From contig NZ_CP025938.1 in the NCBI RefSeq assembly GCF_002893765.1, positions 1,822,673 to 1,886,672 of the forward strand: DNA of 64,000 nucleotides, written 5' to 3'. This DNA comes from Pseudotamlana carrageenivorans. GTDB lineage: Bacteria > Bacteroidota > Bacteroidia > Flavobacteriales > Flavobacteriaceae. This document shows, piece after piece, positions 4,757 through 18,092 of the stretch. The notes below the pieces were generated by a model. The model did not search any database. It was not told the origin of the DNA and was given only the letters and a program-made list of their open reading frames with translations. Positions within the stretch are counted from its first letter, which is position 1, and every line of letters begins with the position of its first letter. A program made the translations under genes and the position numbers.

Positions 4757-4796
4757 TTCTAAAATCCCCCAACTTTTGCTCTTGATCCGTAAAAAG

Positions 4797-5622
4797 GCGT
4801 GTTGCCAGGGGTGTTGCTCGTAGTGGCTTGAATGGCTATGATGTGGTTTAGCCACGGATTAAAATATTTTCTGGCATCAATTTCATATTTAGAAAATTGG
4901 TAGGTACTTCCTAAAAATTTTGGGTTGGTTAAAATGTAAGTCATTACATAGGTCCCTTGTTGCGGGTTGTACCTGTTGTCGCGGCTATCATAAGAAAAAG
5001 CTAATCCTGTACCTAAGGCAATACCTCCGTCTAAGCCTGTAACTTTGTCTCGGATTAAAAAACTATCTGGTTCGGTTTCAATATTAAAATAACTAGAAAA
5101 ATTAATAGGTACCCCAACGTAGAAGTATTTGTTGAAACGAAACATGTAGGTAGAAAAAAACTTGATGCTTTCCAGTTGGATTTCTTCTACATCCTCTCTT
5201 TTAACGTTATTACCAATTCCAAAAATATAATCGGGCTGTTTTTTATAATTTATGTAGGCCTCTACAACACGATTGTTTTCTTTAAAGATAAGTTCTGTGG
5301 AAATGGAAGCGTTAATTTGACCCCTAGAGGATAAGGTGAACAATTCTGATAGTTTGGAAGGTTTCGAAATCGTATCCTTTTGGGATAGTTGTAAAATGTT
5401 AAATTTGGTTAATCCATAAATATTACCAGCTTCTGGAAGATGAGAATAAATAGGTACAGGGAATTTCTTAAAAAAGGCTTCAGCTTTTTTATTGAATTGG
5501 TCAAACTTTGACTCGTGTTTAGTGCTATCCGTTTTCTTTCTATGAATTGTGGAGTCATGCTGTGCGATAATAGAGATCGAACAAATGAGCAGTGATAGAA
5601 AAATATGCCTTTTCATAAGCAT
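4797..5622 (-). pseudogene. Outer-membrane beta-barrel protein (Omp85/surface-antigen-like C-terminal TPFY motif); 3' end displaced by the ISL3 insertion
   Basis: Signal peptide MLMKRHIFLSLLICSISIIAQ. The last 8 residues of the listed ORF (GSRAKVGGF) are read from the ISL3 inverted repeat. With ISL3-B removed, the frame continues into 1942..~1898 (…NTPFYELSRIKHKPP*). Confidence 0.4.
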
Positions 5623-5836: not shown

Positions 5837-6202
5837 ATGAAAAAAGTATATCATGTTTTATTTATTTTAGGTCTTTTTATGGGTTTTAACTCATGCGGAT
5901 CTGATGATGCTGAAAATGCTATTGATTGCCTTTTTGAACCCGTAAATTTCAATGTAAATCATGTGATATCACCCAAAAACTCAAAGGAAGTGTCTTTTAT
6001 CTTGTTGTATACTGGTGAACATAATTTAGATGAAGAGGTCACATGGAATTTTGGAGATGGTACTACTCTGAAAATTTCAGGAACTAGGGCGACGCATACT
6101 TATTCTGATGCAGGATCGTATAAGGTGGTGGTAAAACCTACTGTTAGAAACGGAGATGCCTTTTGTTCTCCAAGTGTAGATAGGAATATTAATGTAGAGT
6201 AG
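5837..6202 (+). CDS. PKD-domain lipoprotein
   Basis: Lipoprotein signal (…GFNSCGSDD) and a PKD-like WNFGDGT…HTYSDAGSYKVVV motif. Confidence 0.55.
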   Translation: MKKVYHVLFILGLFMGFNSCGSDDAENAIDCLFEPVNFNVNHVISPKNSKEVSFILLYTGEHNLDEEVTWNFGDGTTLKISGTRATHTYSDAGSYKVVVKPTVRNGDAFCSPSVDRNINVE

Positions 6203-6303: not shown

Positions 6304-7305
6304 ATGGTGACATTAAAACAATTGGCTAAAGAGCTAAATGTATCGATTTCTACAGTTTCAAAAGCCCTAAATAATAGCACCGAGATAGGTGGCGAAACCG
6401 TAAAACGTGTTAAAGAACTCGCCGAATTATATAACTATAAACCCAACAAGGTTGCTTTAAGTTTAAAACAGAATAAAACCAAAACTATTGGTGTTATAAT
6501 TCCTAATATTCTGAATCATTTTTTGGCTAAAGTTCTTTTCGGAATCGAACGAGAGGCGACTAAACACGGTTATAATATCATTACTTGTATTTCTAATGAA
6601 TCTTTAGCTCAGGAAAAGGAAAGCTTACAATTACTGGCCAGCGGAAGTGTTGATGGATTTATCTTGTCCATGGCCGAAGAAACGCAAATTAAAGGTGAGG
6701 TTGAGCATTTCAAAAGAACCATTAGTCAGGGGTTACCTGTGGTCATGTTTGATCGCGTTGCTCACGATGTGATGTGCGATAAAGTGATTGTAGATGATTT
6801 TGAATCCACCTATAATGCTACAAAAACCTTATTAGCCGAAAACCGGAAAACTATAGGTTTTATTAGTAACATCAACGATTTAAGTGTTGGGAAACTTCGA
6901 GAACGCGGTTATAATAAAGCGATTTTAGAAGCCGGTATGGAGGCACTGGTTTTAAAACTTAAGAAAAAAGATGATCAGCAGAAAAAGATTAAGAGTTTTT
7001 TCAAGAAAAATGGTCAGCTAGATGGTATTATTGCTGCCGATAGTTCTTCGGGAATAATTGGCTTAAATATGGCTGTGAATTTTGGTTTAAAAGTACCAAA
7101 GGATATCTCTGTAATTGGTTTTGCTAGTAAGTCCGATTCTTATCATACCTTACCCAGATTAACGACCATTCGTCAGCATGCTAAAATTATCGGATCTAAG
7201 GCAGCAGAACTTCTAATAACCAGGCTTCAACAAACGCCAAGGGATGAGAATTTTCGCACTAAAATAGTGAAAACGAGCCTCATAAAAAATAAATCTACAC
7301 TTTAG
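6304..7305 (+). CDS. LacI-family transcriptional regulator
   Basis: N-terminal HTH VTLKQLAKELNVSISTVSKALN plus a periplasmic-binding-protein-like sugar-binding core. Confidence 0.8.
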   Translation: MVTLKQLAKELNVSISTVSKALNNSTEIGGETVKRVKELAELYNYKPNKVALSLKQNKTKTIGVIIPNILNHFLAKVLFGIEREATKHGYNIITCISNESLAQEKESLQLLASGSVDGFILSMAEETQIKGEVEHFKRTISQGLPVVMFDRVAHDVMCDKVIVDDFESTYNATKTLLAENRKTIGFISNINDLSVGKLRERGYNKAILEAGMEALVLKLKKKDDQQKKIKSFFKKNGQLDGIIAADSSSGIIGLNMAVNFGLKVPKDISVIGFASKSDSYHTLPRLTTIRQHAKIIGSKAAELLITRLQQTPRDENFRTKIVKTSLIKNKSTL

Positions 7306-7597
7306 TTTGTTAAAATTTCGGGTATTTCAGCGATTATAGGTTCCTTTTTTAGGGGGGCTTTATAATTTTAAATATTTGTAATTATATTAGAATGCTGAAT
7401 GGTTAAAAAATTGCTTCTTTATTTCCTGTAAAAAATCATTCATGGCTATTTCTGGCCATTTTTCTCTCAATATCCATACGCTAATGGTCGTGCATTTAAG
7501 TGCGATTTCATATGTTTTGTTTAGTTGATTTTTACGGTCTAAAATTCAAAATACATCAATTTTTTAAAATAATATTTAACCTGAAAAACTCAAAAAA

Positions 7598-7744
7598 ATG
7601 AAAATTCTTAAAATCACCTTATTAGTAGCAGTCTTTATCACTTTATTCACTTCTTGTACTAAAGAAGATTTACATGAAGATGATATGTTGATAGACGAAA
7701 CTTCAACGACATTAATCACAAGCGGAAATGTAGTTGAACGCTAA
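7598..7744 (+). CDS. Small acidic lipopeptide precursor (48 aa), paralogue 1 of 3
   Basis: MKILKITLLVAVFITLFTSC|TKEDLHEDDMLIDETSTTLITSGNVVER. It has a signal peptide, a Cys lipobox and acidic residues after Cys+1 (a Bacteroidota surface-export-like signal). The C-terminal TTLITxGNVVER is conserved in all three copies, and differences between copies are mostly synonymous. Confidence 0.55.
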   Translation: MKILKITLLVAVFITLFTSCTKEDLHEDDMLIDETSTTLITSGNVVER

Positions 7745-7829
7745 TAAAAAATAAATTTCTCAAATCAAATAACAATTAAAAAAACGTAAAAATGAGGCCT
7801 AATAGACAAAATGGTTGGTCTTTTAACGC

Positions 7830-8404
7830 CTATTCTTGTACGTCTATTTTTGCTTTTAAAAACTCATTAATAAATTTGATTTTTCTTTGTTTGGTTAATC
7901 CGTTATGATTTCTGAGTTTGTTTTTTAAATCAGAAAAATGCCCATCAATCATATTGGTTGTATTAGGAATATTTAAATCGTAATTATCATACCATGTAAA
8001 TAACCATGTCATATTCGTATTAAGACTTCTATACGCACTCCTAAGTCGTTTATGGGTAAAATGACTCTTGCCTGTTTCATTATTAATAGTTCGCTCATTT
8101 AAAAAGCTTTCCCACTTAATAAACCACATATTTAATCCTCCTTCGAAAGATTCTTTATCTGTATTTTTGAGCATAGCTACATGCGTTTTTAATTCAATTG
8201 AAGCAAGCATTTTCGGGTTCTTAGTTATATATCTTCTTATTGCAGCAACTTGATGAAATTGACAGAGCTGGACAGGTATTCCTTTAAACGTACCAACCAA
8301 GCCTTTTCTACCATCACATACAATAGCAACAATCTCAAAACCTTTAGATTTTAGCTCATTAATCCCCTTTATATACAAAGCGTTAGTTTCTGATTTGACG
8401 TAAT
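7830..8404 (-). pseudogene. IS1-family-like transposase, C-terminal DDE fragment (upstream part displaced by IS21)
   Basis: The first ~17 codons of listed ORF 7830..8456 (GTG start) are read from the IS21 terminal repeat. The real sequence runs from …YYVKSETNAL… to …TTNMIDGHFSDLKNKLRNHNGLTKQRKIKF, which is IS1 InsB-like. Confidence 0.5.
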
Positions 8405-8489
8405 ACCTGGCTATTTCGGAGTGACCATGCCACGTATTTCGGTCAAACCGTGCCACTTTAAGAGATCATACAATAATAGTTAAATTTAA

Positions 8490-9302
8490 TTAATACTGTT
8501 CTTTCAACTTACCTTTTCTCAAGGATTCTCCAGTAAGGTTTATCCTATGCGATGAATTTACAATACGATCTAGTATCGCATCAGCGATAGTGCTTTCGCC
8601 GATAATATCGTACCAAGCGGATACAGGTATTTGTGAAGCTACAATCGTTGCTTTTTTATCATGTCTTTCATCGATTATGTCCATAAGCGCCTCTCTGTCC
8701 TGATTGTCGAAGCTCTGTAAACCAAAATCATCAAGGATAAGCAGATCTACTTTTAATAGTTTTGCAAGTTCTTTAAGGTAAGTGCCATCTACTTTACTTA
8801 GTTTTAATCGTTTCATCAGTCTAGCAGTATTTGTGTATAGGGTTCTTTTATTCATCATACAAGCTTGATGTCCCAATGCCTGAGCTATATAACTTTTACC
8901 CACTCCAGAGGATCCTGTGATAATCAAGTTTTCCTTTTTTTGTACAAAATCTAGAGTAGCCAAACGCTCGAACATATTTCTGTCCAAGCTTCTGTTGTGC
9001 AGGTAATTAATATCTGTAAGTGTAGCTCCCTGCTTAAAGGCTGCTTGCGTTGTAAGCCTTTTTATCTTTCTATTCTGAAGGTCTTCCCATTGGTGATCGG
9101 TAAGCAATGCTAGATATTGATCTGGCGTAAGACCCTCTATTCGGTTATCACTAAGGTGGTTGTGATGGAGTTCAGCCATAGCTGTTAATCTCATTTTTCT
9201 GAGTTTTTCGATGGTGTGATTTGTATTCATATATGTATAAAATTTAAGTGATTTTTTCGTGTTGTTTTTACTTATAATTGGATGCCCCACGGATGTTCGC
9301 AT
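8490..9302 (-). CDS. istB: IS21-family helper ATPase IstB
   Basis: Walker A GSSGVGKSYIA and Walker B DDFG in the IstB/DnaC-like fold. Confidence 0.85.
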   Translation of the reverse strand: MRTSVGHPIISKNNTKKSLKFYTYMNTNHTIEKLRKMRLTAMAELHHNHLSDNRIEGLTPDQYLALLTDHQWEDLQNRKIKRLTTQAAFKQGATLTDINYLHNRSLDRNMFERLATLDFVQKKENLIITGSSGVGKSYIAQALGHQACMMNKRTLYTNTARLMKRLKLSKVDGTYLKELAKLLKVDLLILDDFGLQSFDNQDREALMDIIDERHDKKATIVASQIPVSAWYDIIGESTIADAILDRIVNSSHRINLTGESLRKGKLKEQY

Positions 9303-10897
9303 GCTTGGGGATATGAGAACCTCGGTCTGTTTCTTCTTGTAGGAATAAGGAGCTTTGATCTAGATTATTCTTCAGTATGTTGGTTATCCTGTTGTAGCTT
9401 ACAGCATCAGCCTGTATGGCTCTTTTGCAAGCATTATCTAACCTTTGGGAGCCATAAGACTTATGGAGTTGTATAACGCCCATAGCTCTTTTATACCCTG
9501 TTTCAGGATAATCCAACGCAGCAATAATCCGCTCGACACATGCTGCAACATAACTACCATGGACAACTGCCTTGTTCTTAAAGTATTGCGGACTCCACTG
9601 GCTGTATTGTTTATGAGAACTACTAAGGTGATCCTTGTTGGTTATGTATGCGCCTTTGGAACCGCTACGTTGGTGTATAGCTATGCGCTGTTGATTATAA
9701 TACACCTCTACCATGCCTTTGGTATAGTGTAGCGTGGTTTCCTTGCCAATGTAACGATATGGAACGCTGTAGTAAGTCTTATCTGGTGAAAAATAGATAT
9801 AGCCTATTTTCTGAACCTTAGCTCTTCTATATTCTTTTATCTCGTAGCGTGTACTGCTTAAGGGTTTTAGATACTCTCGTTCGACGCTTTGGAAGAGCTC
9901 CAGACGACTAGCTTCTTTGCGTTGGAATAATAGGTTGTTGTAGCGCTCTAGTAGAAGTTTTATCTCTTTGTTTAGATCTGCTAAAGAAAAAAAGGTCATT
10001 TCCCGAAGGGGATAATAAATCCGTTGATAAGCTAGATGCACCGCGTTTTCCACCAGCGCTTTATCTTGAGGGGAGTAACTACGCGTTGGATTGACCACGC
10101 AGTTGTAATGGCGGGCAAAGTCTTTAAAACTACGGTTAACCTGAGCTTCGTATCTACTAGATCTGGTAACGACTGATTTTAGATTGTCTGATACGATGGC
10201 CTTGGGTACTCCCCCCGTAGAAATGAAGGGCGTTTTCGCAACAACTTATAAAATCTTCACGCTTTTGGCTCATACAAGCCTCAACATAGGTATACTGACT
10301 GTTAGGGAGCATGGCAACAAAGACCTCTACTGGAAGTATCTCGCCTGTGATTTTGTCTACTATCTGAAGTTTTTTTCCAGCAAAGTCCACGAACATCTCT
10401 TTCCCTGCCTCGTGTTCAAGTTTCATAGATCCCTTGATCTTGGCATATTTACGATGGTAATGCTCCATGAATTGAGTGTAACTATAAGGGTCTTTAACCT
10501 TTTGACTATATTCTGTGTAGTGGTACAAAAAAGTAAATCCTGGGTGGTTCCGAGCCTTATTAATACTTTCAAAATAAAGCATCAATTCATCATAGCGTTT
10601 GTTATTTATGGTTGTATGAGATGTAAAGAGCTTTTCTAGGGTGTGGTTGTCTAGCTTTAATAACTCCTTAAAACTATAACCACTACCTTTAAATAGGTGT
10701 ATATAGCTATTTATAGTGTTGCGGCAAATGCCAAGTGTGGCTCCAATTTGACGGTTACTATAACCATCTTGTTTTAAGTTGATAATTTGTTTTAGGTCCT
10801 TTGGATCAAGTGTGTTGGCCATATCGCTTTTTAGAGCAATAAGGTAATTACTTGATCTCTTAAAGTGGCACAAATCGAAACGGAAACATTGGCACAA
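9268..10897 (-). pseudogene. istA: IS21-family transposase IstA, frameshifted in a C6/G6 homopolymer at 10211-10216
   Basis: Listed ORFs 10157..10897 (HTH; …HFYGG) and 9268..10098 (…NPTRSYSPQDKALVENAVH…) join in one frame as HFYGG-VPKAIVSDNLKSVV…VVNPTR if one G is removed. The likely true start is the Met at 10822. Confidence 0.8.
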
Positions 10898-11008
10898 ATC
10901 AAACCGTTTTTAGCTAACTCAATTTCCGTGTGGCACAATTTAAACCGAAATCAACGGCACAGTAACTCCGAAATCACTGGCACAAATCGAACCGTGTTAG
11001 CCAATACC

Positions 11009-12119
11009 TCCGTATTCAAGAACTTAACGCAACAAATCTAAATTAATAGATTTGTAATTATGGTACGAAAAAAACAGGTAGACTTACCCTTAAAGAAAGA
11101 ATAAAGAATACAGATTGAGACTCTTTTAACTGAAAAAAAGAATAAATCATACATCGCTATAACCATTAACAGAGCTCGATCTACGGTTACAAGAGAAGTT
11201 AATAAATGGGTGCAAACAGATAGAGATAAATACTCAGCAGAACTAGCTCATTGGTGCGCCAAAGATGATTACCTAAACAAAAGAAATATTGATAAAATAT
11301 CTAAGTACCCTAGACTTCGAATTTATGTCTATAGGGGCTTATTATCACAATGGACTCCTGAACAAATTGCTGGAAGACTAAAAGAAGAATTCCCAAATGA
11401 TCCTATAATGTCTATTTCTCACGAATCAATTTATAGGTACATATATGCAAAGCCTCAAGCTAGTTTAAATAAAAAACTAATTAAACTCCTCGTACGCAAA
11501 AAAACAAGACGTAGACCCTCTAAAAAAAGACGCAGAACAGGATCTAAAATATTAAACCAAGTCAGTATAGACCTAAGGCCCGAGCATATTAACCTAAGAA
11601 ATGAAATCGGACACTGGAAAGGAGATTTAATGATTGGGAAGGATCAAAAATCGGCTATTGGAACTATCGTAGAACGCAAATCTAGATATACATTAATTAT
11701 CAAACTAAAAGCCAGGAACTCTAAGGAAATTGCTAAAATGTTTTCTAAAGAACTTAACAAACTAGATCCCATATTCAAAAAATCTATGACCTACGATAAT
11801 GGAATTGAAATGGCAAGACACGAAACAATTACCAAGAAAACAGGTATGAAAATTTACTTTGCACACCCCTATTCTTCTTGGGAAAGAGGTACCAATGAAA
11901 ACACTAACGGACTCATCAGAAGGTACCTCCCAAAAGGAACAGATTTTAACAAAATTGACTTAAATACATTCATCGAAATTCAAGAAAAATTAAACAATAG
12001 ACCTCGTAAAATTATTGGATTTAAAACCCCTAATGAAGTTATGATAAAAGAACTAAAAATTGTAGCTTAGACTCATACAAAAAAAAGCAACGTTTGTTGC
12101 GTTAGAACCTTGAATGCAG
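11009..12119 (+). mobile_element. IS30-family element; boundaries approximate
   Basis: Roughly 25-bp inverted repeats gtattcaagaacttaacgcaacaaa (11009-) and its reverse complement (-12119) bracket the IS30 transposase gene. Confidence 0.65.
11060..12070 (+). pseudogene. IS30-family transposase with N-terminal frameshifts at two A7 tracts
   Basis: Listed ORF 11210..12070 has the DDE region with HWKGDLMIG. The upstream HTH is present in two other frames (RLTLKERIKN / IETLLTEKKNKSYIAITINRARSTVTREVNKW), broken at aaaaaaa runs near 11069 and 11140. Confidence 0.7.
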
Positions 12120-12351
12120 CACCAAAGAAGATTCTCCTTGCTGTAAGCATCCTTAAAGAGCATTAATCCAAAGCTTCTCCCCCAATATGTTGTATCCATT
12201 AAGACAATAACTTTCTTAGGTGTTATCTCTACGTCCTTTACTTGATGAAGATCTAGTTTACGTTGTATAATTCGCTTTGAACATCCATATTTCTGAGAAA
12301 GCTGTAAATAGGTCTGCTTTCCTCTGGTATATTCATCCCAAAGAGAGTCTA
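12120..12351 (-). pseudogene. IS1-family-like transposase, N-terminal/middle fragment (between the IS30 and IS256 insertions)
   Basis: Reverse strand reads …SLWDEYTRGKQTYLQLSQKYGCSKRIIQRKLDLHQVKDVEITPKKVIVLMDTTYWGRSFGLMLFKDAYSKENLLW, in frame with the far side of IS256 copy 1. Confidence 0.45.
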
Positions 12352-13705
12352 GAGTTTATCCAAAATTTTGTGTTTTTGAAAAATAATTTCAAAATTCATA
12401 GGTTAAAATAATATAGATTATAACCTGTTTGGAAAACAAATATACAATTGATTGTAAATTTGGCCCCATTTAAATCGTGTTTTCTTCCATTTTTTGCTGA
12501 TGCTTTGAGCTGCTAAATATATGGATTTCAGTGCTGCATCATCATGAGGGAAGACTTTTTTGTTGCGTGTATATTTTCTTAAACTGGCATTAAAACTCTC
12601 AATGATATTGGTAGTATATATAAGTTTTCTAATCTCTTTTGGGTAGTTTAAAAACGCGGTCAAATTATCCCAATTGTTTTCCCAAGACTGTACGGCAGAG
12701 AGGTATTTATCTTCCCAATTTTGTTTAAAGACTTCGAAAGCCTCTAAAGCGAATTTCTCATTATCGGCTTGATAAATAGCTTTAATATCGACCATTATTG
12801 ATTTACGGTCCTTATAGCTCACATATTTTAAAGAGTTTCTAATTTGATGTACGATACATATTTGACGTATACTACCTGGAAAAATAGCTTCTACAGCTTT
12901 ATCTAATCCAGAGAGGTTATCCGAACACAGAAAGAAGATATCTTTTACGCCTCTAGAGCGCAGATCGTCTAAAATGGACATCCAAGCAGCTGCCTTTTCT
13001 GTCTCCACAATACTCATGCTCAAAATATCTTGTTGCCCTTCGGTATTCACCCCTAAAACTATCATACAGGCTTTAGATATTACCTTGCCTTCTTGACGTA
13101 TTTTATAATGAATAGCATCTATCCAGACAATGGGATATACGTCTTCTAAAGGTCTATTCTGCCATTGTTTGATGTCTTCCAATAATTGATTGGTGATAAT
13201 GGATACCTGTGATGTGGAATACTGCACTCCATAGGTACTTTCAATAAAATCAATAATATCGCTATTGCTCATACCTTTGGCGTAAAGCAGTTGAATACAA
13301 TCTTCTAATTCTTGACTAATCGATTGATGTTTGGGGACAATAACAGGCTCAAAGCTCGCTTGACGATCTCTGGGGATTTTGATGCGTTGTTCGCCGTTAT
13401 GAGTCTTGATAGTTTTCTCTGAGAAACCATTGCGCTGGTTGTTCTCAATTACAGAACCTCCTTTTTGAAACCCTAAGTGGGCAGTCATTTCTGCTTTTAA
13501 AAGTGATTCAATACCACGTTTAAGCAACTGTTCCTTGACCTGGTCAAAGTCCTCCTTGTTGCTGATTTTGCCGATCAAGGCGTCTAATTGTTTTTCTAAG
13601 TCTGAGTTCATAAAATAAAAATTTAAAAGTAAATTTTTTGCCTATGAATTTCAAAATCATTTTTAAACTAACTAACAGCAAAAACACAAAATAGTTTACA
13701 GTCCC
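12352..13705 (-). mobile_element. IS256-family element copy 1 (1354 bp); 8-bp target-site duplication AGAGTCTA (12344-12351 and 13706-13713)
   Basis: Imperfect terminal inverted repeats gagtttatccaaaattttgtgtttttg and caaaaacacaaaatagtttacagtccc; perfect flanking direct repeats; identical to copy 2 at 33463..34816. Confidence 0.85.
12418..13611 (-). CDS. IS256-family (mutator-type) transposase
   Basis: 397 aa with the D…D…E and CxxH signature (…FPGSIRQICIVHQIRNSLKYV…TTNIIESFNASLRKYTRNKKVFPHDDA). Confidence 0.9.
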   Translation of the reverse strand: MNSDLEKQLDALIGKISNKEDFDQVKEQLLKRGIESLLKAEMTAHLGFQKGGSVIENNQRNGFSEKTIKTHNGEQRIKIPRDRQASFEPVIVPKHQSISQELEDCIQLLYAKGMSNSDIIDFIESTYGVQYSTSQVSIITNQLLEDIKQWQNRPLEDVYPIVWIDAIHYKIRQEGKVISKACMIVLGVNTEGQQDILSMSIVETEKAAAWMSILDDLRSRGVKDIFFLCSDNLSGLDKAVEAIFPGSIRQICIVHQIRNSLKYVSYKDRKSIMVDIKAIYQADNEKFALEAFEVFKQNWEDKYLSAVQSWENNWDNLTAFLNYPKEIRKLIYTTNIIESFNASLRKYTRNKKVFPHDDAALKSIYLAAQSISKKWKKTRFKWGQIYNQLYICFPNRL

Positions 13706-13918
13706 AGAGTCTACTTGAATTTCTTTTCCTCCAGTAAAAACACTTTTACAATTCAAACATTTATAACGCTGTTTTTCTAATCTAACACCATATTTATGGG
13801 TTAGTAAGCTATTACAAAATTTACATTTTTTTTATTCAAAGCCTTTGATTTGCTTCAAAGCTAATAAACATAAGCTCTTCGAAAGGATTTACCAACCATT
13901 TTGTCCATTACATCAAAA

Positions 13919-14065
13919 ATGAAAATTCTTAAAATCACCTTATTAGTAGCAGCCATTATTACTTTGTTTACTTCATGTACTAAAGAAGATTTGCATGAAG
14001 ACGACAAACTCGTCGAGGAACTAACAACGACCTTAATTACAGGTGGAAATGTAGTTGAGCGTTAA
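13919..14065 (+). CDS. Small acidic lipopeptide precursor (48 aa), paralogue 2; its start codon lies inside the target-site duplication of the composite IS
   Basis: MKILKITLLVAAIITLFTSC|TKEDLHEDDKLVEELTTTLITGGNVVER. Confidence 0.55.
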   Translation: MKILKITLLVAAIITLFTSCTKEDLHEDDKLVEELTTTLITGGNVVER

Positions 14066-14115
14066 AAAAAAGATTACAAATATAATATCTAATGACAATT
14101 AATAAAAACGTAAAA

Positions 14116-14262
14116 ATGAAAATTCTTAAAATTACCTTATTAATTGCAGTCTTTATAACAATTTTTGCTTCGTGTACAGAGCAAGACCTACAAGAAGATG
14201 ACATGCTTACTGATGAACCAACAACGACGTTAATCACAGGCGGAAATGTAGTTGAGCGCTAA
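14116..14262 (+). CDS. Small acidic lipopeptide precursor (48 aa), paralogue 3
   Basis: MKILKITLLIAVFITIFASC|TEQDLQEDDMLTDEPTTTLITGGNVVER; a 50-bp spacer separates it from paralogue 2, like the spacer between copy 1 and the interrupted copy. Confidence 0.55.
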   Translation: MKILKITLLIAVFITIFASCTEQDLQEDDMLTDEPTTTLITGGNVVER

Positions 14263-14368
14263 TTAGGTATTTGTAAATTTAGATGGCTTTTTATATAGGT
14301 TTGATCATCGGTTTTAGATAAATTGAAAAATTATAGATACATTTGAAGGTGTTTACCCCCTGATACTT

Positions 14369-16393
14369 TTGAAACGCTTTATTTTCTTTTTATTCTCGAT
14401 AGTCTTGTGTGTTAATCTTTCTTTTACTCAGAATTATAGTAAAGAAAAGTTTGACAGGGTACTCTATTATTTAAGTGAGTCGAGTAATCCAGAGCATAAT
14501 TTAGAGGAAAAAAAGGAACTTGTTTTAAAAGCTAAGGATTTAGCGTTTGATATGAATAGCTATTCCCTATTGTTGCAGTGTAACCAAAAACTTTTAGAAT
14601 TAGATAAGGAAATGGGACATAGTGGTTCCTTTCTAAAATTGAGTCATGAAAACTTACAACTAGCAGAAAAGTTTAAAGATACGACTACCATAGCTCAAAT
14701 AAATAAAAACTTAGGCTATTATTATTTTGATAAACAGGTCGATAGTGCACATTTTTATAACCATCGCGCGGAGAAATTGTTTAAACAATTAAATGATCAT
14801 TATAATACGGCTGCAGTATTATTAGATATCGCTTTGCTTCAACGTGGTGCCAAGGATTATACAGGTAGTGAACTGACGTCAATTGAAGGCATCATGCTTT
14901 TAAACAAAATAAAAAAACCGACAAAAGAGGTTATTCAAAAAAAGGCATTTTTCTATAATAATTTAGGGGTGGTTTTTAATGGTTTAGAGCAATATGATAA
15001 ATCTATTGAATATCAAAATAAGTCTATAGAACTCAAGTTAAGGTTAAAAGGAAATAATAAGGCGGCTATAGATTTTTCAAAAAACAACTTAGGAAACGTA
15101 TTAAAAAATGCCGGACAATATGAGTTAGCATTAAAGACTTTAGGGGAAGTTCTTGAAGATGAAACTTTAGAAAATGAATCACCCGAATTTTACGCCATCG
15201 TCCTCGACAACTATGCACACACTTTATATTTGTCGAATGATAGAGACGCCTTGCCAGGTTTATATCATAAAGCCTTGAAAGCAAGCAAAGCTGCCGGTAT
15301 AGATGGTTATAATTCTATAATCATTTTTCAACATTTAGCCGAATATTCTAATGATTTGGGATTGAAGGATTCCGCTAAATATTATGGTTATGAAGCCAAG
15401 CGTATTGCAGAAAAATATTATAATGACGCCCTCTTGAAATCATTATTATTACTTTCAAAAATTGAGGAAGGCGAGGTTGCTGCCAACCATTTAAGAAATT
15501 ATGTGCGACTTAATGATAGCCTTCAGAAAAGTGAACGGGCTATTAGAAATAAGTTTACTAGAATTAAGTTTGAAACTAATGAGATAGAAGAGGAGAATAT
15601 TAGAATAGCACGCGAGCGCATGTGGTTGTTAGTTATTTCAATTGTAGTTATTGTGGCTTCTATTTTATTATACATCATATTTACACAGCGCAATAAAAAT
15701 AAGAAGTTAGAGTTTATTCAACAACAACAACAAACCAACGAAGAAATTTATAATCTTTTACTTGCTCAAAATGAAGTTGTTGAGGATGCTCGAGCTTTAG
15801 AAAAGAAACGTATTTCGGAAGAGTTACATGATGGTGTGCTAGGGAAACTTTTTGGTGCTCGTTTAAGTTTGGATAGCTTAAATACCAATACGAGTCCCGA
15901 GGCCATGAAAACAAGAAGCCAGTATATTGCTGAGCTTAAAATGATAGAAGAAGACATTAGAAAAGTCTCACATGAGTTAAATGCCGATTTTGTTTCGGGT
16001 TCTGGTTTTAGAGGTATTATTAAAACCTTAGTGGAGACCCAAACTGTAGCTTACGGACTTGAATATAAATTAGAATGGCAGTCTACTATCGATTGGGATG
16101 AGGTTTCAAATAAAATAAAAATTCATTTTTATAGAATTATTCAAGAGGCGCTCCACAATATTTATAAACATGCTAATGCAAGTAAAGTGAATCTTGTTTT
16201 TAAATTGGAAAATAATGCCGTTTGTTTAAGTATTATTGATGACGGTGTTGGATTTGATGTGAGCAGAACAAAATCTGGCATTGGCCTTAAAAACATGACC
16301 TCAAGAATAAAGGAAATACAAGGAAAAATAGACATAATTTCTAAAAAAATAGAAGGAGGAACCACGGTAAATATAGATGTCCCCATATCTTAA
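14369..16393 (+). CDS. Sensor histidine kinase with an extracytoplasmic TPR-repeat domain (HisKA_3 + HATPase_c; NarL/LuxR-type partner)
   Basis: Signal peptide, about 400 aa of TPR-like repeats, TM helix MWLLVISIVVIVASILLYIIF, H-box EELHDGVLGKL and G-boxes GIGLKNM…GGTT. Confidence 0.8.
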   Translation: MKRFIFFLFSIVLCVNLSFTQNYSKEKFDRVLYYLSESSNPEHNLEEKKELVLKAKDLAFDMNSYSLLLQCNQKLLELDKEMGHSGSFLKLSHENLQLAEKFKDTTTIAQINKNLGYYYFDKQVDSAHFYNHRAEKLFKQLNDHYNTAAVLLDIALLQRGAKDYTGSELTSIEGIMLLNKIKKPTKEVIQKKAFFYNNLGVVFNGLEQYDKSIEYQNKSIELKLRLKGNNKAAIDFSKNNLGNVLKNAGQYELALKTLGEVLEDETLENESPEFYAIVLDNYAHTLYLSNDRDALPGLYHKALKASKAAGIDGYNSIIIFQHLAEYSNDLGLKDSAKYYGYEAKRIAEKYYNDALLKSLLLLSKIEEGEVAANHLRNYVRLNDSLQKSERAIRNKFTRIKFETNEIEEENIRIARERMWLLVISIVVIVASILLYIIFTQRNKNKKLEFIQQQQQTNEEIYNLLLAQNEVVEDARALEKKRISEELHDGVLGKLFGARLSLDSLNTNTSPEAMKTRSQYIAELKMIEEDIRKVSHELNADFVSGSGFRGIIKTLVETQTVAYGLEYKLEWQSTIDWDEVSNKIKIHFYRIIQEALHNIYKHANASKVNLVFKLENNAVCLSIIDDGVGFDVSRTKSGIGLKNMTSRIKEIQGKIDIISKKIEGGTTVNIDVPIS

Positions 16394-16402
16394 CCCTTAA
16401 AT

Positions 16403-17077
16403 ATGACTGAAACTATTAAAATACTTATGATTGATGATCACCCCATGATTATTGAGGGGTATCAAAACACGTTGCTGTATACCAAACGCGACAATCAAGA
16501 ACTAGAAATTGAAATCGCTCATAACTGCGATGAAGCGCTTAGGGCCATAAACAAGGCTGTAAAAACAGACAGGTCCTTTGATGTGTTATTCGTAGATATC
16601 AGTTTGCCAGCGTCAACTGATGGAAGTATGAATTCTGGCGAAGATTTAGCCGAATTTGCTAGAAAGGTATTGCCCCAATCCAAAATAATCATTTTAACTA
16701 TGTTTAATGAGTCGTTTAGAATTCATAACATTATTAAAACGATAAATCCGGAAGGCTTGTTAATTAAAAGTGATTTAACATCTAACGAATTAGCCAACGC
16801 TTTTCAAACGGTTATGGATAATGTGCCTTTTTATAGTGCTACAGTAAATCAATTAATACGCAGAACCATTAGCAGTGATATTGTGATTGACGATAAGAAT
16901 CGAAAAATACTCCACTTACTTTCACAAGGTGTTAAAACTAAAAATTTAGCCGCGCATTTAGATATTTCTTTAAGTGCTATAGAAAAGCGCAAAAAGCAAC
17001 TTCGTGATCTTTTTGAAGTTGAAGATGGACAGGATGAGACCCTTCTAAATCAAGCACGTAAAAAAGGATTTGTATAA
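16403..17077 (+). CDS. Response regulator (REC domain + LuxR-type HTH)
   Basis: IKILMIDDHPMI…FDVLFVDISLP receiver acidic pocket; C-terminal HTH …NRKILHLLSQGVKTKNLAAHLDISLSAIEKRKKQL. Confidence 0.75.
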   Translation: MTETIKILMIDDHPMIIEGYQNTLLYTKRDNQELEIEIAHNCDEALRAINKAVKTDRSFDVLFVDISLPASTDGSMNSGEDLAEFARKVLPQSKIIILTMFNESFRIHNIIKTINPEGLLIKSDLTSNELANAFQTVMDNVPFYSATVNQLIRRTISSDIVIDDKNRKILHLLSQGVKTKNLAAHLDISLSAIEKRKKQLRDLFEVEDGQDETLLNQARKKGFV

Positions 17078-17298
17078 AAAGTACCGTTAAAAATAAAAAT
17101 TATTACTTTTTTAGACATTATTTGTTTATTTTTAACATGTTAAAAAGCTGAAAATCAACTACTTGATCTGTTTCCGTAAGTTTGATGCGGGTTTTCCGCA
17201 GTTAGAAAAGAATCATGTTATATATCTTTGTGGTATCAACAATTCAAAAATTAATTAATCCCTCAATTTTTTAGTTGATAATAGCAATTTACATAACC

Positions 17299-17340
17299 CT
17301 GTGGAGGTGAGAGACCCACAGGGTTCTTCTTTTTTAAAAG
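17299..17340 (+). terminator. Rho-independent terminator-like hairpin
   Basis: ccctgtggAGGTGAGAGAcccacaggg followed by ttcttctttttt. Confidence 0.4.
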
Positions 17341-17615: not shown

Positions 17616-18092
17616 ATGAAACACGCTATTGTTTTTTTATTGGTTTTAATGCTTTCGTCTTGCGAGTATTTTAAAGTAAAAAAAACATCTTCAGAAGCCA
17701 TTTTAAATGAAGAGTTGAAGACTTTTAATTGGAATGATGTTGATGAATACCCTAATTTTACAGTTTGTGATGAATCGGCAAGTAAAGCTGCGCGACAAAC
17801 ATGTTTTCAAAACACGTTAACCCATCATATCACCAATTTTTTGCAAGATGAAGGGATTGTGGTTTCTCGAGATATTAATGATACCATTTTATTGGAATTT
17901 CAAGTGTCTAAAACAGGTGATTTATCTTTAATTAATGCCAGTGTTGATAGCTTAACCATCGATGAAATCCCAAATATTGATGATTTACTAAATCAGAGTC
18001 TAACCGGTTTGCCTAGAATTTTTCCAGCCATTAAACGTGGTCAGCAAGTCACTACAGAATTTAAGCTGCCTTTAATAATACGTGTTAATTAG
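17616..18092 (+). CDS. Lipoprotein with a TonB-C-terminal-like domain
   Basis: Signal plus Cys (LSSC), and a C-terminal pattern …ILLEFQVSKTGDLSLINA…LPRIFPAIKRGQQVTTEFKLPLIIRV resembling the TonB_C fold. Confidence 0.4.
   Translation: MKHAIVFLLVLMLSSCEYFKVKKTSSEAILNEELKTFNWNDVDEYPNFTVCDESASKAARQTCFQNTLTHHITNFLQDEGIVVSRDINDTILLEFQVSKTGDLSLINASVDSLTIDEIPNIDDLLNQSLTGLPRIFPAIKRGQQVTTEFKLPLIIRVN

What the first reader, a model, noticed from the sequence alone, without database searches (positions are those of the whole stretch)
7598..17077. Tandem array of three paralogous 48-aa acidic lipopeptide genes upstream of an extracytoplasmic-TPR histidine kinase and LuxR response regulator
Three small ORFs (7598-7744, 13919-14065, 14116-14262) encode MKILKITLL… signal peptides ending in a Cys lipobox. 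Each is followed by a 28-aa acidic tail (C-TKEDLHEDD…) with a strictly conserved C-terminus TTLIT(S/G)GNVVER. Nucleotide differences between copies are dominated by synonymous or conservative changes (tta/ttg, gaa/gag, cgc/cgt), which argues for real, selected peptides rather than random ORFs.

Before the composite insertion sequence arrived, the three genes were contiguous with ~46-50 bp spacers. They lie directly upstream of a sensor kinase whose ~400-aa periplasmic domain is built of TPR repeats, followed by a LuxR-type response regulator.

TPR sensor domains are peptide binders in Gram-positive RRNPP quorum-sensing systems. Here the organisation suggests a Gram-negative analogue, with surface-exposed or released lipopeptides as cognate ligands. 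Alternatively they could be bacteriocin-like or sus-like accessory lipopeptides.
Basis: partly seen in the sequence, partly recalled or inferred. Interest (0 to 1): 0.65.

Follow-up and report, generated by a model that had tools for sequence, protein, structure and literature searches.

The report
Small lipopeptide genes beside TPR kinase
Three tiny, strongly acidic lipoprotein genes sit directly upstream of a membrane sensor kinase in a marine flavobacterium; the pairing holds in more than ten related genera and looks like an undescribed signalling module, with the peptide probably acting as the kinase's own ligand.

Summary
The window (Pseudotamlana carrageenivorans) carries three 48-aa genes under strong purifying selection (dN/dS 0.11-0.16). 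A 6.1-kb nest of four insertion sequences, flanked by an 8-bp target duplication at the start codon of gene 2, splits the array.

The family is unannotated and small: about 35 clusters among 1.84 billion representative proteins. It was linked to the kinase wherever I could look. All six kinase-sampled genera outside Tamlana have 1-4 such genes directly upstream. All six distinct peptide-sampled metagenome contigs that run on downstream carry the kinase.

Each peptide has a lipoprotein signal, a near-invariant C-TKQDLNEDDVL start resembling the Bacteroidota surface-export signal, a variable middle, and usually a [TS]GG motif 4-5 residues from the C-terminus. The kinase sensor is a periplasmic TPR superhelix resembling domains that bind extended peptides.

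New here: the peptide unit has its own leader and terminator, the kinase has its own promoter, and an undescribed ~100-nt sRNA with an upstream palindrome follows the response regulator.

I judge a peptide-kinase ligand relationship the most likely reading, but it rests on inference from context. It is not an RRNPP system, and no bacteriocin or Sus link was found.

The parts
6304..7305 (+). LacI-family regulator. It is the usual upstream neighbour of the peptide unit: present in most loci that reach far enough upstream, absent in L024 and L026.
   Evidence: Pfam LacI + Peripla_BP; 67-82% identical orthologues directly upstream of the peptides in other loci
7322..7333 (+). GTATTTCAGCGA, one copy of the motif GCATTTCRTCGA. 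Other genera have 1-3 copies here, in some loci arranged as a 22-26 bp palindrome. Candidate operator (inferred).
   Evidence: found at -276 to -356 from the first ATG in most LacI-bearing loci (none in L021); none in L024 or L026
7338..7360 (+). terminator-like hairpin following LacI
7383..7390 (+). TATATTAG, a conserved TAnnTTAG box (7 of 8 match to the Bacteroidota sigma-A -7 box TAnnTTTG). Candidate promoter of the peptide transcript.
   Evidence: present as TAnnTTAG in 12 of the 15 loci aligned; consensus cited from PMC9723704
7391..7597 (+). about 205-nt leader of the peptide transcript. It holds hairpins at 7442-7459 and 7486-7507, a degenerate UCCCUCA-type motif, and TTAACCTGAAAA at 7577-7588.
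   Evidence: in other genera the leader is about 240 nt with three UCCCUCA motifs and covarying hairpins
7598..7744 (+). lipopeptide gene 1 (WP_158651319.1): signal peptide 1-19, Cys20, mature form CTKEDLHEDDMLIDETSTTLITSGNVVER
7788..7795 (.). left copy of the 8-bp target-site duplication AAAAATGA
7796..13914 (.). Nest of four insertion sequences. The outer element has 20-nt terminal inverted repeats and a truncated transposase at 7830-8456(-). Inside it are an IS21-type element (istB at 8490-9302 and two ORFs, 9268-10098 and 10157-10897, read here as a split istA), an IS30-type element (11210-12070) and an IS256-type element (12418-13611). It separates gene 1 and its leader from genes 2 and 3.
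13915..13922 (.). right copy of the target-site duplication; it includes the ATG of gene 2
13919..14065 (+). lipopeptide gene 2 (WP_158651320.1)
14116..14262 (+). lipopeptide gene 3 (WP_158651321.1, annotated with an 8-codon longer start)
14338..14345 (+). TACATTTG, a consensus -7 box inside the conserved AAAAATTATAGATACATTTG. This is the kinase's own promoter. The intrinsic terminator that precedes it in other genera is missing here.
   Evidence: exact TACATTTG in 15 of 17 loci aligned; the other two differ by one base
14369..16393 (+). Sensor histidine kinase, 674 aa from a TTG start: signal/anchor 1-21, periplasmic TPR superhelix about 25-365, juxtamembrane helix, TM about 420-441, HisKA_3, HATPase_c
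16403..17077 (+). NarL/LuxR-type response regulator (WP_102995480.1)
   Evidence: Pfam Response_reg; NCBIfam NarL-family models aligned over residues 5-204; GerE below cutoff
17174..17191 (+). Degenerate copy (CCGTAAG..TGCGGG) of the palindrome (A/C)CCGTAA-N5-TTACGG(G/T) found upstream of the sRNA in other genera. Candidate response-regulator binding site (inferred).
17223..17230 (+). TATCTTTG, -7 box of the sRNA promoter
17232..17336 (+). Candidate sRNA of about 100 nt: a 7-bp stem closing a loop with invariant AAUCCCUCA, then an intrinsic terminator. No Rfam family.
   Evidence: (125 bits; one copy per locus in 16 of 17 loci)
17616..18092 (+). 158-aa lipoprotein, syntenic in most loci but often separated from the regulator by a BlaI/BlaR-type cassette. 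Its membership of the module is doubtful.

Best explanation
This is a conserved signalling module of a clade of marine Flavobacteriaceae. It has four parts: (i) one to five genes for a lipidated, very acidic peptide of about 29 aa; (ii) a histidine kinase whose sensor is a periplasmic TPR superhelix; (iii) a NarL-type response regulator; (iv) a small RNA gene just downstream.

Most likely mechanism:
1. The peptide is made from its own promoter, behind a long structured leader. That promoter lies next to operator-like repeats and a LacI-family gene.
2. It is exported by Sec, lipidated at Cys20, and carries a surface-export signal.
3. Its unstructured tail, probably including the free C-terminus held at a fixed distance from the [TS]GG motif, lies in the groove of the kinase's TPR domain while the peptide is in the periplasm or envelope.
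4. The kinase therefore reports how much of its own lipopeptide is being made or is waiting for export.
5. The phosphorylated regulator then acts at the palindrome upstream of the adjacent sRNA gene.

Shown: gene reality and selection, the conserved linkage, domain topology, TPR fold, separate transcription signals, and the sRNA with its promoter and terminator.

Inferred: lipidation, surface export, peptide-TPR binding, sensing of the cell's own peptide, and regulator-to-sRNA control.
For: Linkage: peptide genes sit directly upstream of the kinase and regulator in 5 Tamlana loci, in 6 of 6 kinase-sampled genera, and in 6 of 6 distinct peptide-sampled contigs that extend downstream. This includes two loci where LacI is replaced.

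Restricted family: only about 35 clusters, all small proteins, in an exhaustive HMMER pass over 1.84e9 representatives. No Pfam or NCBIfam family matches.

Selection: dN/dS is 0.11-0.16.

Peptide anatomy: 77 of 78 members keep the lipobox Cys. Mature residues 1-12 are near-invariant. In 33 of the 45 members that have a [TS]GG motif (72 examined), exactly 4-5 residues follow it to the C-terminus. 66 of 72 have an acidic residue at the last or second-last position. Net charge is -3 to -11. CTKEDL equals the LES optimum C-X-K-(D/E)2-X.

No fold of its own: the AF2 mature part has pLDDT 50-55.

Sensor: the AF2 model has pLDDT 89 and forms an 18-helix TPR solenoid between a signal sequence and a TM helix. 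The best PDB matches are LGN/Pins TPRs, solved in complex with peptide or protein partners (TM up to 0.75). Rap-Phr complexes also appear.

Co-variation: distance between the last 8 peptide residues tracks sensor-domain distance in 10 non-Tamlana loci (Mantel r 0.51, p 4e-4). The signal persists after controlling for the kinase domain (r 0.45, p 0.003).

Precedent in the phylum: the export signal of PorA is the periplasmic ligand of the kinase PorY.

Output: the sRNA is found once per locus in 16 of 17 loci, with a sequence-conserved palindrome and a -7 box upstream.
Against: No binding, lipidation, localisation or expression data exist; everything rests on sequence and context. Co-folding of peptide and sensor could not be run.

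The co-variation signal for the whole C-terminal half disappears outside Tamlana (r 0.12). Two fast-evolving sequences can also correlate without any contact.

The kinase sample covers only homologues at 45% identity or more, and the kinases were not sampled independently of phylogeny.

Gene amplification to 3-5 copies and species-specific tails are not needed for a co-sensor acting on its own cell.

A surface-export signal would take the peptide away from the periplasmic sensor.

Lacinutrix keeps peptides, kinase and regulator but lacks the sRNA, so the sRNA cannot be the only output.
Confidence: 0.45

Rival explanations
1. Released peptide pheromone (quorum or kin sensing). The lipopeptide is flipped to the cell surface and its C-terminal part is cut off. 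The fragment diffuses, re-enters the periplasm of neighbouring cells, and binds the TPR sensor.
For: The precursor gene lies next to the sensor and regulator, as in comC-comDE. It carries a surface-export signal. It is amplified to 3-5 copies in several lineages. Within one genus the species differ in the last five residues: NVVER, NILER, NGVER, NEVER, TVNER. The tail co-varies with the sensor. Some homologues carry the FTGGDIDE unit twice, like multi-copy pheromone precursors. Rap-Phr complexes are among the structural matches.
Against: No processing protease, exporter or importer is conserved in the locus. The regulator-type palindrome is absent from the peptide promoter, so no autoinduction loop is visible. 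The 12 residues after the Cys are far more conserved than a disposable pro-region would need to be. A 29-aa acidic peptide cannot cross the outer membrane by diffusion, which is my own knowledge of porin size limits. Most lineages have a single gene.
Confidence: 0.2
2. The peptides are not ligands. They are abundant acidic surface lipopeptides, for example cation-binding or surface-charge-modifying. They sit next to the two-component system because they are regulated with it or by it, or only through inherited synteny.
For: They have an extreme negative charge and a surface-export signal. They have their own promoter, and in most genera a strong terminator, typical of a highly expressed small gene. 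Gene amplification fits a dosage need. Some tails resemble GGxGxD calcium-binding turns. The whole block from LacI to the glycosyltransferase is syntenic in most loci examined.
Against: Adjacency to the kinase survives rearrangements on both flanks: LacI is lost in L024 and L026, and BlaI/BlaR cassettes are inserted downstream. The family occurs nowhere else in 1.84e9 representatives. A C-terminus-anchored motif and tail-sensor co-variation are not expected for a bulk surface coat. No regulator-type site is present at the peptide promoter.
Confidence: 0.2
3. The RNA is the main actor. The peptide transcript, with its long leader carrying UCCCUCA motifs, is a dual-function regulatory RNA in the manner of RNAIII/hld, and the small ORF is secondary.
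For: The leader is conserved, about 240 nt long, with covarying hairpins and three UCCCUCA motifs. The same motif sits in the loop of the sRNA downstream.
Against: The ORF itself is under strong purifying selection at the protein level and keeps its signal, Cys and C-terminal motifs across genera. The leader motifs are degenerate in Tamlana and absent in Lacinutrix, where the peptides persist. The window leader is not unusually stable (z -0.87).
Confidence: 0.07
4. Bacteriocin or RiPP precursors, or accessory lipoproteins of a Sus-like polysaccharide system.
For: Tandem small precursor-like genes with a GG motif. In T. agarivorans an alginate utilisation locus lies upstream.
Against: The peptides have a Sec/lipoprotein signal, not a double-glycine leader. 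No C39 ABC transporter, immunity gene or modification enzyme is conserved nearby, and the nearby radical-SAM gene is HemN-type, part of the housekeeping synteny. The peptides are anionic. SusC/SusD neighbours occur in one species only.
Confidence: 0.03

Closest known systems
PorA-PorY/PorX of Porphyromonas gingivalis (PMC12152298)
   Same: Same phylum. A small exported protein activates a two-component kinase from the periplasmic side, and its export signal doubles as the ligand.
   Different: PorA is a T9SS cargo with a folded C-terminal domain, not a lipoprotein. PorY has no TPR sensor. PorX is not NarL-type. There is no sequence relationship.
Lipoprotein-assisted envelope sensors of Proteobacteria: NlpE-CpxA, RcsF-Rcs, QseG-QseE (my knowledge of these systems)
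   Same: A lipoprotein in transit through the envelope informs an inner-membrane kinase. In qseEGF the lipoprotein gene is in the same locus as the kinase and regulator.
   Different: Those lipoproteins are folded domains of 100-250 aa, not 29-aa tails. None uses a TPR sensor, none is amplified in tandem, and they are not homologous.
RRNPP systems (Rap-Phr, NprR-NprX, PlcR-PapR, PrgX, Rgg-SHP)
   Same: A small adjacent gene encodes a signal-peptide-bearing precursor. The receptor uses a TPR-type superhelix that holds an extended peptide. Peptide ends are species-specific. Rap-Phr complexes appear among the fold matches.
   Different: RRNPP receptors are cytoplasmic and need Opp import. They are fused to an HTH or phosphatase domain, not a kinase, and occur in Firmicutes. 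Here the TPR is periplasmic and part of a histidine kinase, and no Opp genes are in the locus.
Peptide-sensing two-component systems: ComX-ComP-ComA, AgrD-AgrC-AgrA, ComC-ComD-ComE
   Same: Precursor gene next to kinase and regulator. ComA is NarL-type and binds a 6-N4-6 inverted repeat, which is comparable to CCGTAA-N5-TTACGG here (my knowledge).
   Different: Those kinases sense through polytopic membrane domains and need dedicated processing or export genes (ComQ, AgrB, ComAB). None are present here.
GacS/GacA-RsmY/Z
   Same: A NarL/FixJ-type regulator with a palindromic upstream site (TGTAAG-N6-CTTACA, my knowledge) drives a small RNA that carries a repeated short motif.
   Different: The motif here is UCCCUCA, not GGA. 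It occurs once in the sRNA but three times in the peptide leader. No CsrA partner is known here, and the sRNA is physically linked to the two-component genes.
LGN/Pins TPR-peptide complexes (best structural match)
   Same: An eight-repeat TPR superhelix of the same size and curvature (TM up to 0.75). From my knowledge, the partner peptide lies extended in the inner groove, often acidic and about 25-40 residues long.
   Different: These are eukaryotic cytoplasmic scaffolds at 16% identity. This is an analogy of fold only.

Membership tests
Bacterial lipoprotein (signal peptidase II substrate) | N-terminal basic n-region, hydrophobic h-region, and lipobox [LVIF][ASTG][GAS]C with an invariant Cys | tested here: met
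   MK-ILKITLLVAVFITLF-TSC in all three copies. 77 of 78 family members keep the Cys. Weak NCBIfam matches are to the N-termini of known lipoproteins.
Bacterial lipoprotein (signal peptidase II substrate) | Actual diacylglyceryl modification and cleavage before the Cys | not testable with these tools
   Needs globomycin sensitivity, palmitate labelling or mass spectrometry.
Bacteroidota surface lipoproteins carrying the lipoprotein export signal (LES) | C-X-K-(D/E)2-X directly after the +1 Cys (Capnocytophaga canimorsus, Flavobacteriaceae; PMC5080379) | tested here: met
   Genes 1 and 2 have C-T-K-E-D-L, an exact match. Gene 3 has C-T-E-Q-D-L-Q-E-D-D. The family consensus is C-T-K-Q-D-L-N-E-D-D, polar then acidic.
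Bacteroidota surface lipoproteins carrying the lipoprotein export signal (LES) | Exposure on the cell surface | not testable with these tools
   Needs proteinase K shaving or surface labelling.
NarL-class two-component system (HisKA_3 kinase with LuxR-type regulator) | HisKA_3 dimerisation/phosphoacceptor domain with the conserved His, plus HATPase_c | tested here: met
   PF07730 scores 27.2 bits against a cutoff of 24 and PF02518 scores 39.1 bits. The H-box is EELHDG.
NarL-class two-component system (HisKA_3 kinase with LuxR-type regulator) | Receiver domain plus a C-terminal LuxR/GerE helix-turn-helix | tested here: inconclusive
   The receiver is above cutoff (32.8 bits). GerE is the best HTH hit but falls below cutoff (15.8 vs 23.5 bits, E 0.011). 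NCBIfam NarL-family models (MctR 5e-21, NarL, RcsB, UhpA) align across residues 5-204 but below their equivalog cutoffs. The regulator is a divergent member of the class.
RRNPP quorum-sensing receptors | Cytoplasmic receptor: TPR-type domain fused to an HTH or a phosphatase domain | tested here: not met
   The TPR lies between an N-terminal signal sequence and a TM helix, so it is extracytoplasmic, and it is fused to a histidine kinase.
RRNPP quorum-sensing receptors | Peptide re-import by an oligopeptide permease | tested here: not met
   No Opp-type genes in any of the loci examined. Genes elsewhere in the genome were not examined.
RRNPP quorum-sensing receptors | Adjacent small gene for a secreted pro-peptide whose C-terminal part is the signal | tested here: inconclusive
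   An adjacent small secreted-peptide gene is present, with a C-terminus-anchored motif. Processing and signalling by the C-terminal part are untested.
Agr/Com-type peptide-sensing two-component systems | Dedicated precursor processing or export gene (AgrB, ComAB, ComQ) in the locus | tested here: not met
   None in any locus.
Agr/Com-type peptide-sensing two-component systems | Autoinduction: the regulator's binding site lies at the precursor promoter | tested here: not met
   The palindrome CCGTAA-N5-TTACGG occurs only upstream of the sRNA, not upstream of the peptides. Other unrecognised sites cannot be excluded.
Class II bacteriocins / RiPPs | Double-glycine leader with a C39-peptidase ABC exporter, plus immunity or modification genes | tested here: not met
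   The peptides carry a Sec/lipoprotein signal instead, and no such genes are in any locus.
Rfam RNA families (for the sRNA and the leader) | Score at or above a family's gathering threshold | tested here: not met
   The best hits are 13-24 bits against thresholds of 40-141.

The most novel reading that the evidence does not exclude
This could be the first peptide-based cell-cell signalling system in Bacteroidota. A lipopeptide is flipped to the cell surface, and its species-specific C-terminal piece ([TS]GG plus 4-5 residues) is released. A periplasmic TPR histidine kinase reads that piece, and its regulator switches on a linked sRNA. A LacI-type metabolite sensor sets how much signal is made. 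This would be a Gram-negative counterpart of Phr/Rap-type signalling, built from different parts.
Probability: 0.15. Interest if true: 0.85.

Novelty: new variant of a known kind. Interest (0 to 1): 0.62.

Why it matters
To my knowledge, periplasmic-TPR histidine kinases are common in Bacteroidota genomes and none has a known ligand. Here a genetically linked, clade-restricted candidate ligand is identified, so the question becomes directly testable with one deletion and one reporter.

If the peptide is sensed in transit, the module would be a monitor of the still-unknown surface-lipoprotein export pathway of Bacteroidota. If it is sensed after release, it would be peptide quorum sensing in a phylum where none is known.

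Either way the work adds an unannotated protein family, an undescribed sRNA with a likely regulator binding site, and a structured leader. All occur in polysaccharide-degrading marine flavobacteria that matter for algal carbon turnover.

Tried and rejected
**Searches that gave little or nothing**
- The genome-collection scan with the kinase sensor alignment returned only Tamlana, because the two automatically chosen patterns were too narrow. I replaced it with a kinase protein search plus context look-ups.
- Two look-ups failed (P0054 and P0078). P0078 is probably the same gene as P0073 with another annotated start, so the apparent 611-aa and 670-aa kinase classes may be annotation differences, not paralogues.
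- Rfam found no family for the leader or the sRNA.
- A sequence search of the PDB gave only generic or designed TPR proteins.

**Ideas tested and dropped**
- The covariance model of the sRNA finds no second copy in the peptide leader. The shared UCCCUCA motif is therefore not evidence of homology.
- I first read AGATTTTG in the leader as a weak -7 box. It is one arm of a covarying hairpin.
- GAGGGA complementary to the sRNA loop occurs next to the kinase promoter in only two loci and lies upstream of the likely transcription start, so I dropped it.
- The top hit of the exhaustive search (P0142, 1729 aa) is an unrelated repeat protein.
- The Bacteroidota O-glycosylation motif D-(S/T)-(A/I/L/V/M/T) is present in some tails but not in general, judged by eye.
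- The whole-C-half Mantel signal turned out to be driven by the Tamlana cluster. Only the last-8-residue signal holds outside it.

Full report
**1. The observation**

The window comes from Pseudotamlana (Tamlana) carrageenivorans: the peptides, kinase and regulator match its proteins exactly. Each encodes 48 aa: MKILKITLL..., a hydrophobic core, the lipobox (F/I)(T/A)SC with Cys20, and a 28-residue acidic tail ending in TTLIT(S/G)GNVVER. No other copy exists in the 64 kb.

The copies are old but constrained. dS between them is 0.8-1.0, while dN/dS is 0.11-0.16. Over 38 family genes pN/pS is 0.36 in this frame and 0.63-1.19 in the other five. The 47-aa antisense ORFs are therefore artefacts.

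The element that splits the array spans 7796-13914. It has 20-nt terminal inverted repeats (7800-7819 / 13891-13910) and an 8-bp target duplication, AAAAATGA (7788-7795 / 13915-13922), that includes the ATG of gene 2. It is itself interrupted by IS21-, IS30- and IS256-type elements. Removing it restores a 47-bp spacer; the spacer between genes 2 and 3 is 50 bp.

**2. The family and its linkage to the kinase**

NCBI calls the peptides hypothetical proteins (WP_158651319/20/21). No Pfam or NCBIfam family matches them.

Word-indexed searches found only Tamlana relatives plus a few metagenome peptides. An exhaustive HMMER pass over 1.84 billion representative proteins found about 35 clusters, all small proteins of 44-85 aa, apart from one spurious repeat protein.

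Context was sampled from both sides:
- **From the peptide side.** Five Tamlana genomes carry 3-5 tandem copies between a LacI gene and the TPR kinase. Ten metagenome loci were recovered. Seven of these (six distinct sequences, since L017 and L018 are identical) continue past the peptide, and all carry the kinase; those reaching further also carry the regulator. The others end inside or just after the peptide gene or genes.
- **From the kinase side.** The sensor domain has homologues in Seonamhaeicola, Siansivirga, Flaviramulus, Yeosuana, Algibacter, Flavivirga, Mariniflexile, Gaetbulibacter, Confluentibacter, Formosa, Lacinutrix and others. All six loci I could open have 1-4 peptide genes directly upstream: Siansivirga, Seonamhaeicola, Mariniflexile, Lacinutrix, Confluentibacter and CP047028.

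In Lacinutrix and CP047028 the LacI gene is replaced by other genes, yet the peptide-kinase adjacency persists. So does the adjacency when BlaI/BlaR-type cassettes are inserted downstream of the regulator.

One reservation applies: only kinases at 45% sensor identity or more were visible to me.

Most lineages have a single gene. Arrays of three or more occur in Tamlana, Lacinutrix and two metagenome lineages, so they are local amplifications.

**3. Anatomy of the peptide**

Across 78 unique sequences, 77 keep the lipobox Cys; the exception is the fourth Lacinutrix copy, where Cys became Phe. The mature part is 23-44 aa (median 29) with a net charge of -3 to -11.

Mature residues 1-12 are almost invariant: C-T-(K/E)-(Q/E)-D-L-(N/H)-E-D-D-(V/L/I)-L. 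The experimentally defined lipoprotein export signal of Capnocytophaga canimorsus, also a member of the Flavobacteriaceae, is C-X-K-(D/E)2-X (PMC5080379). Genes 1 and 2 (C-T-K-E-D-L) match it exactly.

The middle is variable in sequence and length. The end is anchored:
- 61 of 72 have GG or GxG in the last 14 residues.
- 45 have [TS]GG, and in 33 of those exactly 4-5 residues follow to the C-terminus.
- 66 of 72 have an acidic residue at the last or second-last position.

Within Tamlana the last five residues differ by species: NVVER, NILER, NGVER, NEVER, TVNER. Two distant members carry the unit FTGGDIDE twice. AlphaFold gives the mature part no confident structure (pLDDT 50-55). It is a tethered, unstructured acidic tail, not a domain.

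**4. The kinase and regulator**

With the TTG start at 14369, which homologues support and which restores a signal sequence that the database annotation cuts off, the kinase has these parts:
- a signal/anchor (1-21);
- an all-helical region of 18 helices (25-365) that AlphaFold models as a TPR superhelix with mean pLDDT 89;
- a long, highly conserved juxtamembrane helix;
- one TM segment (about 420-441);
- HisKA_3 and HATPase_c.

The sensor is therefore extracytoplasmic. Its best solved-structure matches are the LGN/Pins TPR domains, solved in complex with peptide or protein partners (TM up to 0.75). OGT/SPY, kinesin light chain and the Rap-Phr complexes rank lower. Sequence search of the PDB gives only generic TPRs.

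The regulator has a receiver domain and a divergent LuxR-type helix-turn-helix. GerE falls below cutoff, but NarL-family NCBIfam models align end to end.

**5.

*Between the last peptide gene and the kinase.* Most genera have a strong intrinsic terminator whose stem shows compensatory changes between genera. It is followed by the almost invariant AAAAATTATAGATACATTTG, whose TACATTTG is a perfect Bacteroidota sigma-A -7 box (TAnnTTTG, PMC9723704) about 20 nt before the kinase start. The peptides and the kinase-regulator pair are therefore separate transcription units. In the window the terminator is absent.

*Upstream of the first peptide gene.* Reading 5' to 3':
- 1-3 copies of GCATTTCRTCGA, found only in loci that have LacI and palindromic in some of them;
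- a terminator for LacI;
- a conserved TAnnTTAG box (window 7383-7390);
- a leader of 205-240 nt with covarying hairpins, three UCCCUCA-type motifs, and TAACCTTAAAA 21 nt before the ATG.

These leader features are clearest outside Tamlana. The spacers between tandem copies lack these signals (by eye), so an array is probably one transcript. In the window the insertion nest has cut genes 2 and 3 off from this promoter and leader.

**6. A linked sRNA**

About 150 nt downstream of the regulator lies a conserved unit:
- the palindrome (A/C)CCGTAA-N5-TTACGG(G/T), which is conserved in sequence rather than covarying and is therefore a protein-binding site;
- a TTG and a TAtcTTTG -7 box;
- about 100 nt containing a 7-bp stem that closes a loop with invariant AAUCCCUCA;
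- an intrinsic terminator with eight compensatory pairs.

A covariance model finds exactly one copy, always at this position, in 16 of 17 loci that extend past the regulator (window 17232-17336, 125 bits). Lacinutrix lacks it. No Rfam family matches.

The 6-N5-6 inverted repeat fits NarL-family sites such as the ComA and GacA boxes (my knowledge). The sRNA is therefore the most likely direct target of the neighbouring regulator. That link is inferred. The palindrome is absent from the peptide promoter, so no autoinduction loop is visible.

**7. Does the peptide track the sensor?**

Across 15 loci, the distance between peptide C-terminal halves correlates with sensor-domain distance (Mantel r 0.63). 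This holds after controlling for the regulator or the kinase domain. Most of that signal comes from the Tamlana cluster, however.

In the 10 non-Tamlana loci only the last eight residues keep it: r 0.51, p 4e-4, and r 0.45, p 0.003 after controlling for the kinase domain. This is suggestive. Two fast-evolving sequences can correlate for reasons other than contact.

**8. Interpretation**

Four findings make a ligand or co-sensor relationship the best explanation: the tight, clade-restricted linkage that tolerates rearrangement; the shared compartment; a TPR groove of the right size for an unstructured acidic tail; and the C-terminus-anchored motif.

I favour sensing of the cell's own peptide in the periplasm, for four reasons. 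It needs no unknown release and re-entry route. The export-signal region is the most conserved part of the peptide. No processing or transport genes are linked. The same phylum offers a precedent in which the export signal of PorA is the periplasmic ligand of PorY.

The released-pheromone reading remains open. It explains amplification, species-specific ends and duplicated end units better. A role as a bulk acidic surface lipopeptide that is merely co-regulated cannot be excluded. An RNA-centred role is unlikely to be the whole story, because the protein is so strongly constrained. Bacteriocin/RiPP and Sus-accessory readings have no support.

**9. Comparison and novelty**

In working principle the module resembles PorA-PorY, NlpE-CpxA, RcsF-Rcs and QseG-QseE (a lipoprotein or exported protein informing a kinase). 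It also resembles Rap-Phr and ComX-ComP-ComA (an adjacent small precursor and a TPR or NarL-type partner). Its output side resembles GacA-RsmY/Z.

It is a member of none of them. The defining features of RRNPP (cytoplasmic receptor, Opp import) and of Agr/Com systems (processing gene, polytopic sensor, autoinduction site) were tested and not met.

I found no paper describing the peptide family, a ligand for this kinase class, or the sRNA. I rate it a new variant of a known kind: an accessory peptide or lipoprotein plus a two-component system, built from new parts. Interest is moderately high because it turns an orphan class of Bacteroidota sensors into a testable system.

Noticed in passing
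window 17174-17336 (+); same position in L001-L005, L014, L015, L017-L019, L021-L023, L025, L026: An undescribed candidate sRNA of about 100 nt lies directly downstream of the response regulator. It has its own TAtcTTTG -7 box, an upstream palindrome CCGTAA-N5-TTACGG, a loop with invariant AAUCCCUCA, and a terminator with compensatory changes. There is one copy per locus in 16 of 17 loci, none in Lacinutrix, and no Rfam match.
   Followed up: partly
window 7383-7597; L011-L025 at about -250 to -1 from the first peptide ATG: The peptide transcript seems to start at a conserved TAnnTTAG box and to carry a 205-240-nt leader. The leader has covarying hairpins, three UCCCUCA-type motifs (the same motif as in the sRNA loop, in the same sense) and TAACCTTAAAA 21 nt before the ATG. 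The motifs are degenerate in Tamlana and absent in L024 and L026.
   Followed up: partly
window 7322-7333; L011-L017, L022, L023 and L025 at -288 to -356 from the first ATG: One to three copies of GCATTTCRTCGA lie between the LacI stop and the peptide promoter. In some loci they form a 22-26-bp palindrome. They occur only in loci with the LacI gene. They are possibly the LacI operator, which would put peptide production under metabolite control.
   Followed up: partly
window 14338-14345 and 14262-14368: The kinase has its own near-invariant promoter (AAAAATTATAGATACATTTG). Most other genera have a strong intrinsic terminator between the peptide and this promoter, which the window lacks, so read-through from the peptide genes into the kinase is possible in Tamlana.
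   Followed up: yes
window 14369 (TTG start of the kinase): The database protein (662 aa, WP_102995479.1) starts 12 codons too late and loses the N-terminal signal sequence. Homologues support the 674-aa form. Similar start-codon differences probably explain the apparent 611-aa and 670-aa classes among the kinase hits.
   Followed up: partly
window 3911-4756, 7796-13914, 28419-29480, 29555-30388, 33529-34722: The window is rich in insertion sequences: ISL3-type, the four-element nest, an element with a DDE_Tnp_1 transposase, an IS3-type element, and an ORF at 33529-34722 of the same 397-aa length as the nest's IS256-type transposase (its identity was not checked by Pfam or alignment). The Omp85 and PKD genes upstream of LacI (4759-5622, 5837-6202) look truncated compared with Tamlana sp. 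s12.
   Followed up: partly
L024 4756-4926 (Lacinutrix jangbogonensis): The fourth copy of the array has lost the lipobox Cys (TSC to TSF) and diverged in its tail. It is a decaying or re-purposed paralogue.
   Followed up: no
P0148, P0159 (metagenome homologues): The C-terminal unit FTGGDIDE occurs twice within one peptide. Others have TGG...GNGG/GNEGG extensions. This suggests that the [TS]GG-x4-5 end is the functional unit.
   Followed up: no
L002 14042-15741, L022 8504-10887, L024 8426-12022, L025 8817-10651, L026 8612-10296: A BlaI/BlaR-type pair (Penicillinase_R repressor plus a Peptidase_M56/TonB_C protein), often with a DUF456 gene, is inserted between the sRNA and the 158-aa lipoprotein in several genera but not in the window.
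   Followed up: no
L001 10001-10525 (Tamlana sp. s12): Three of the five copies encode identical peptides with a 189-bp period, which indicates recent amplification or gene conversion. In contrast, the last copy of T. agarivorans and of Tamlana sp. 2_MG-2023 (CGKQNLHEED...) is a distinct paralogue kept at the same position in both species.
   Followed up: no
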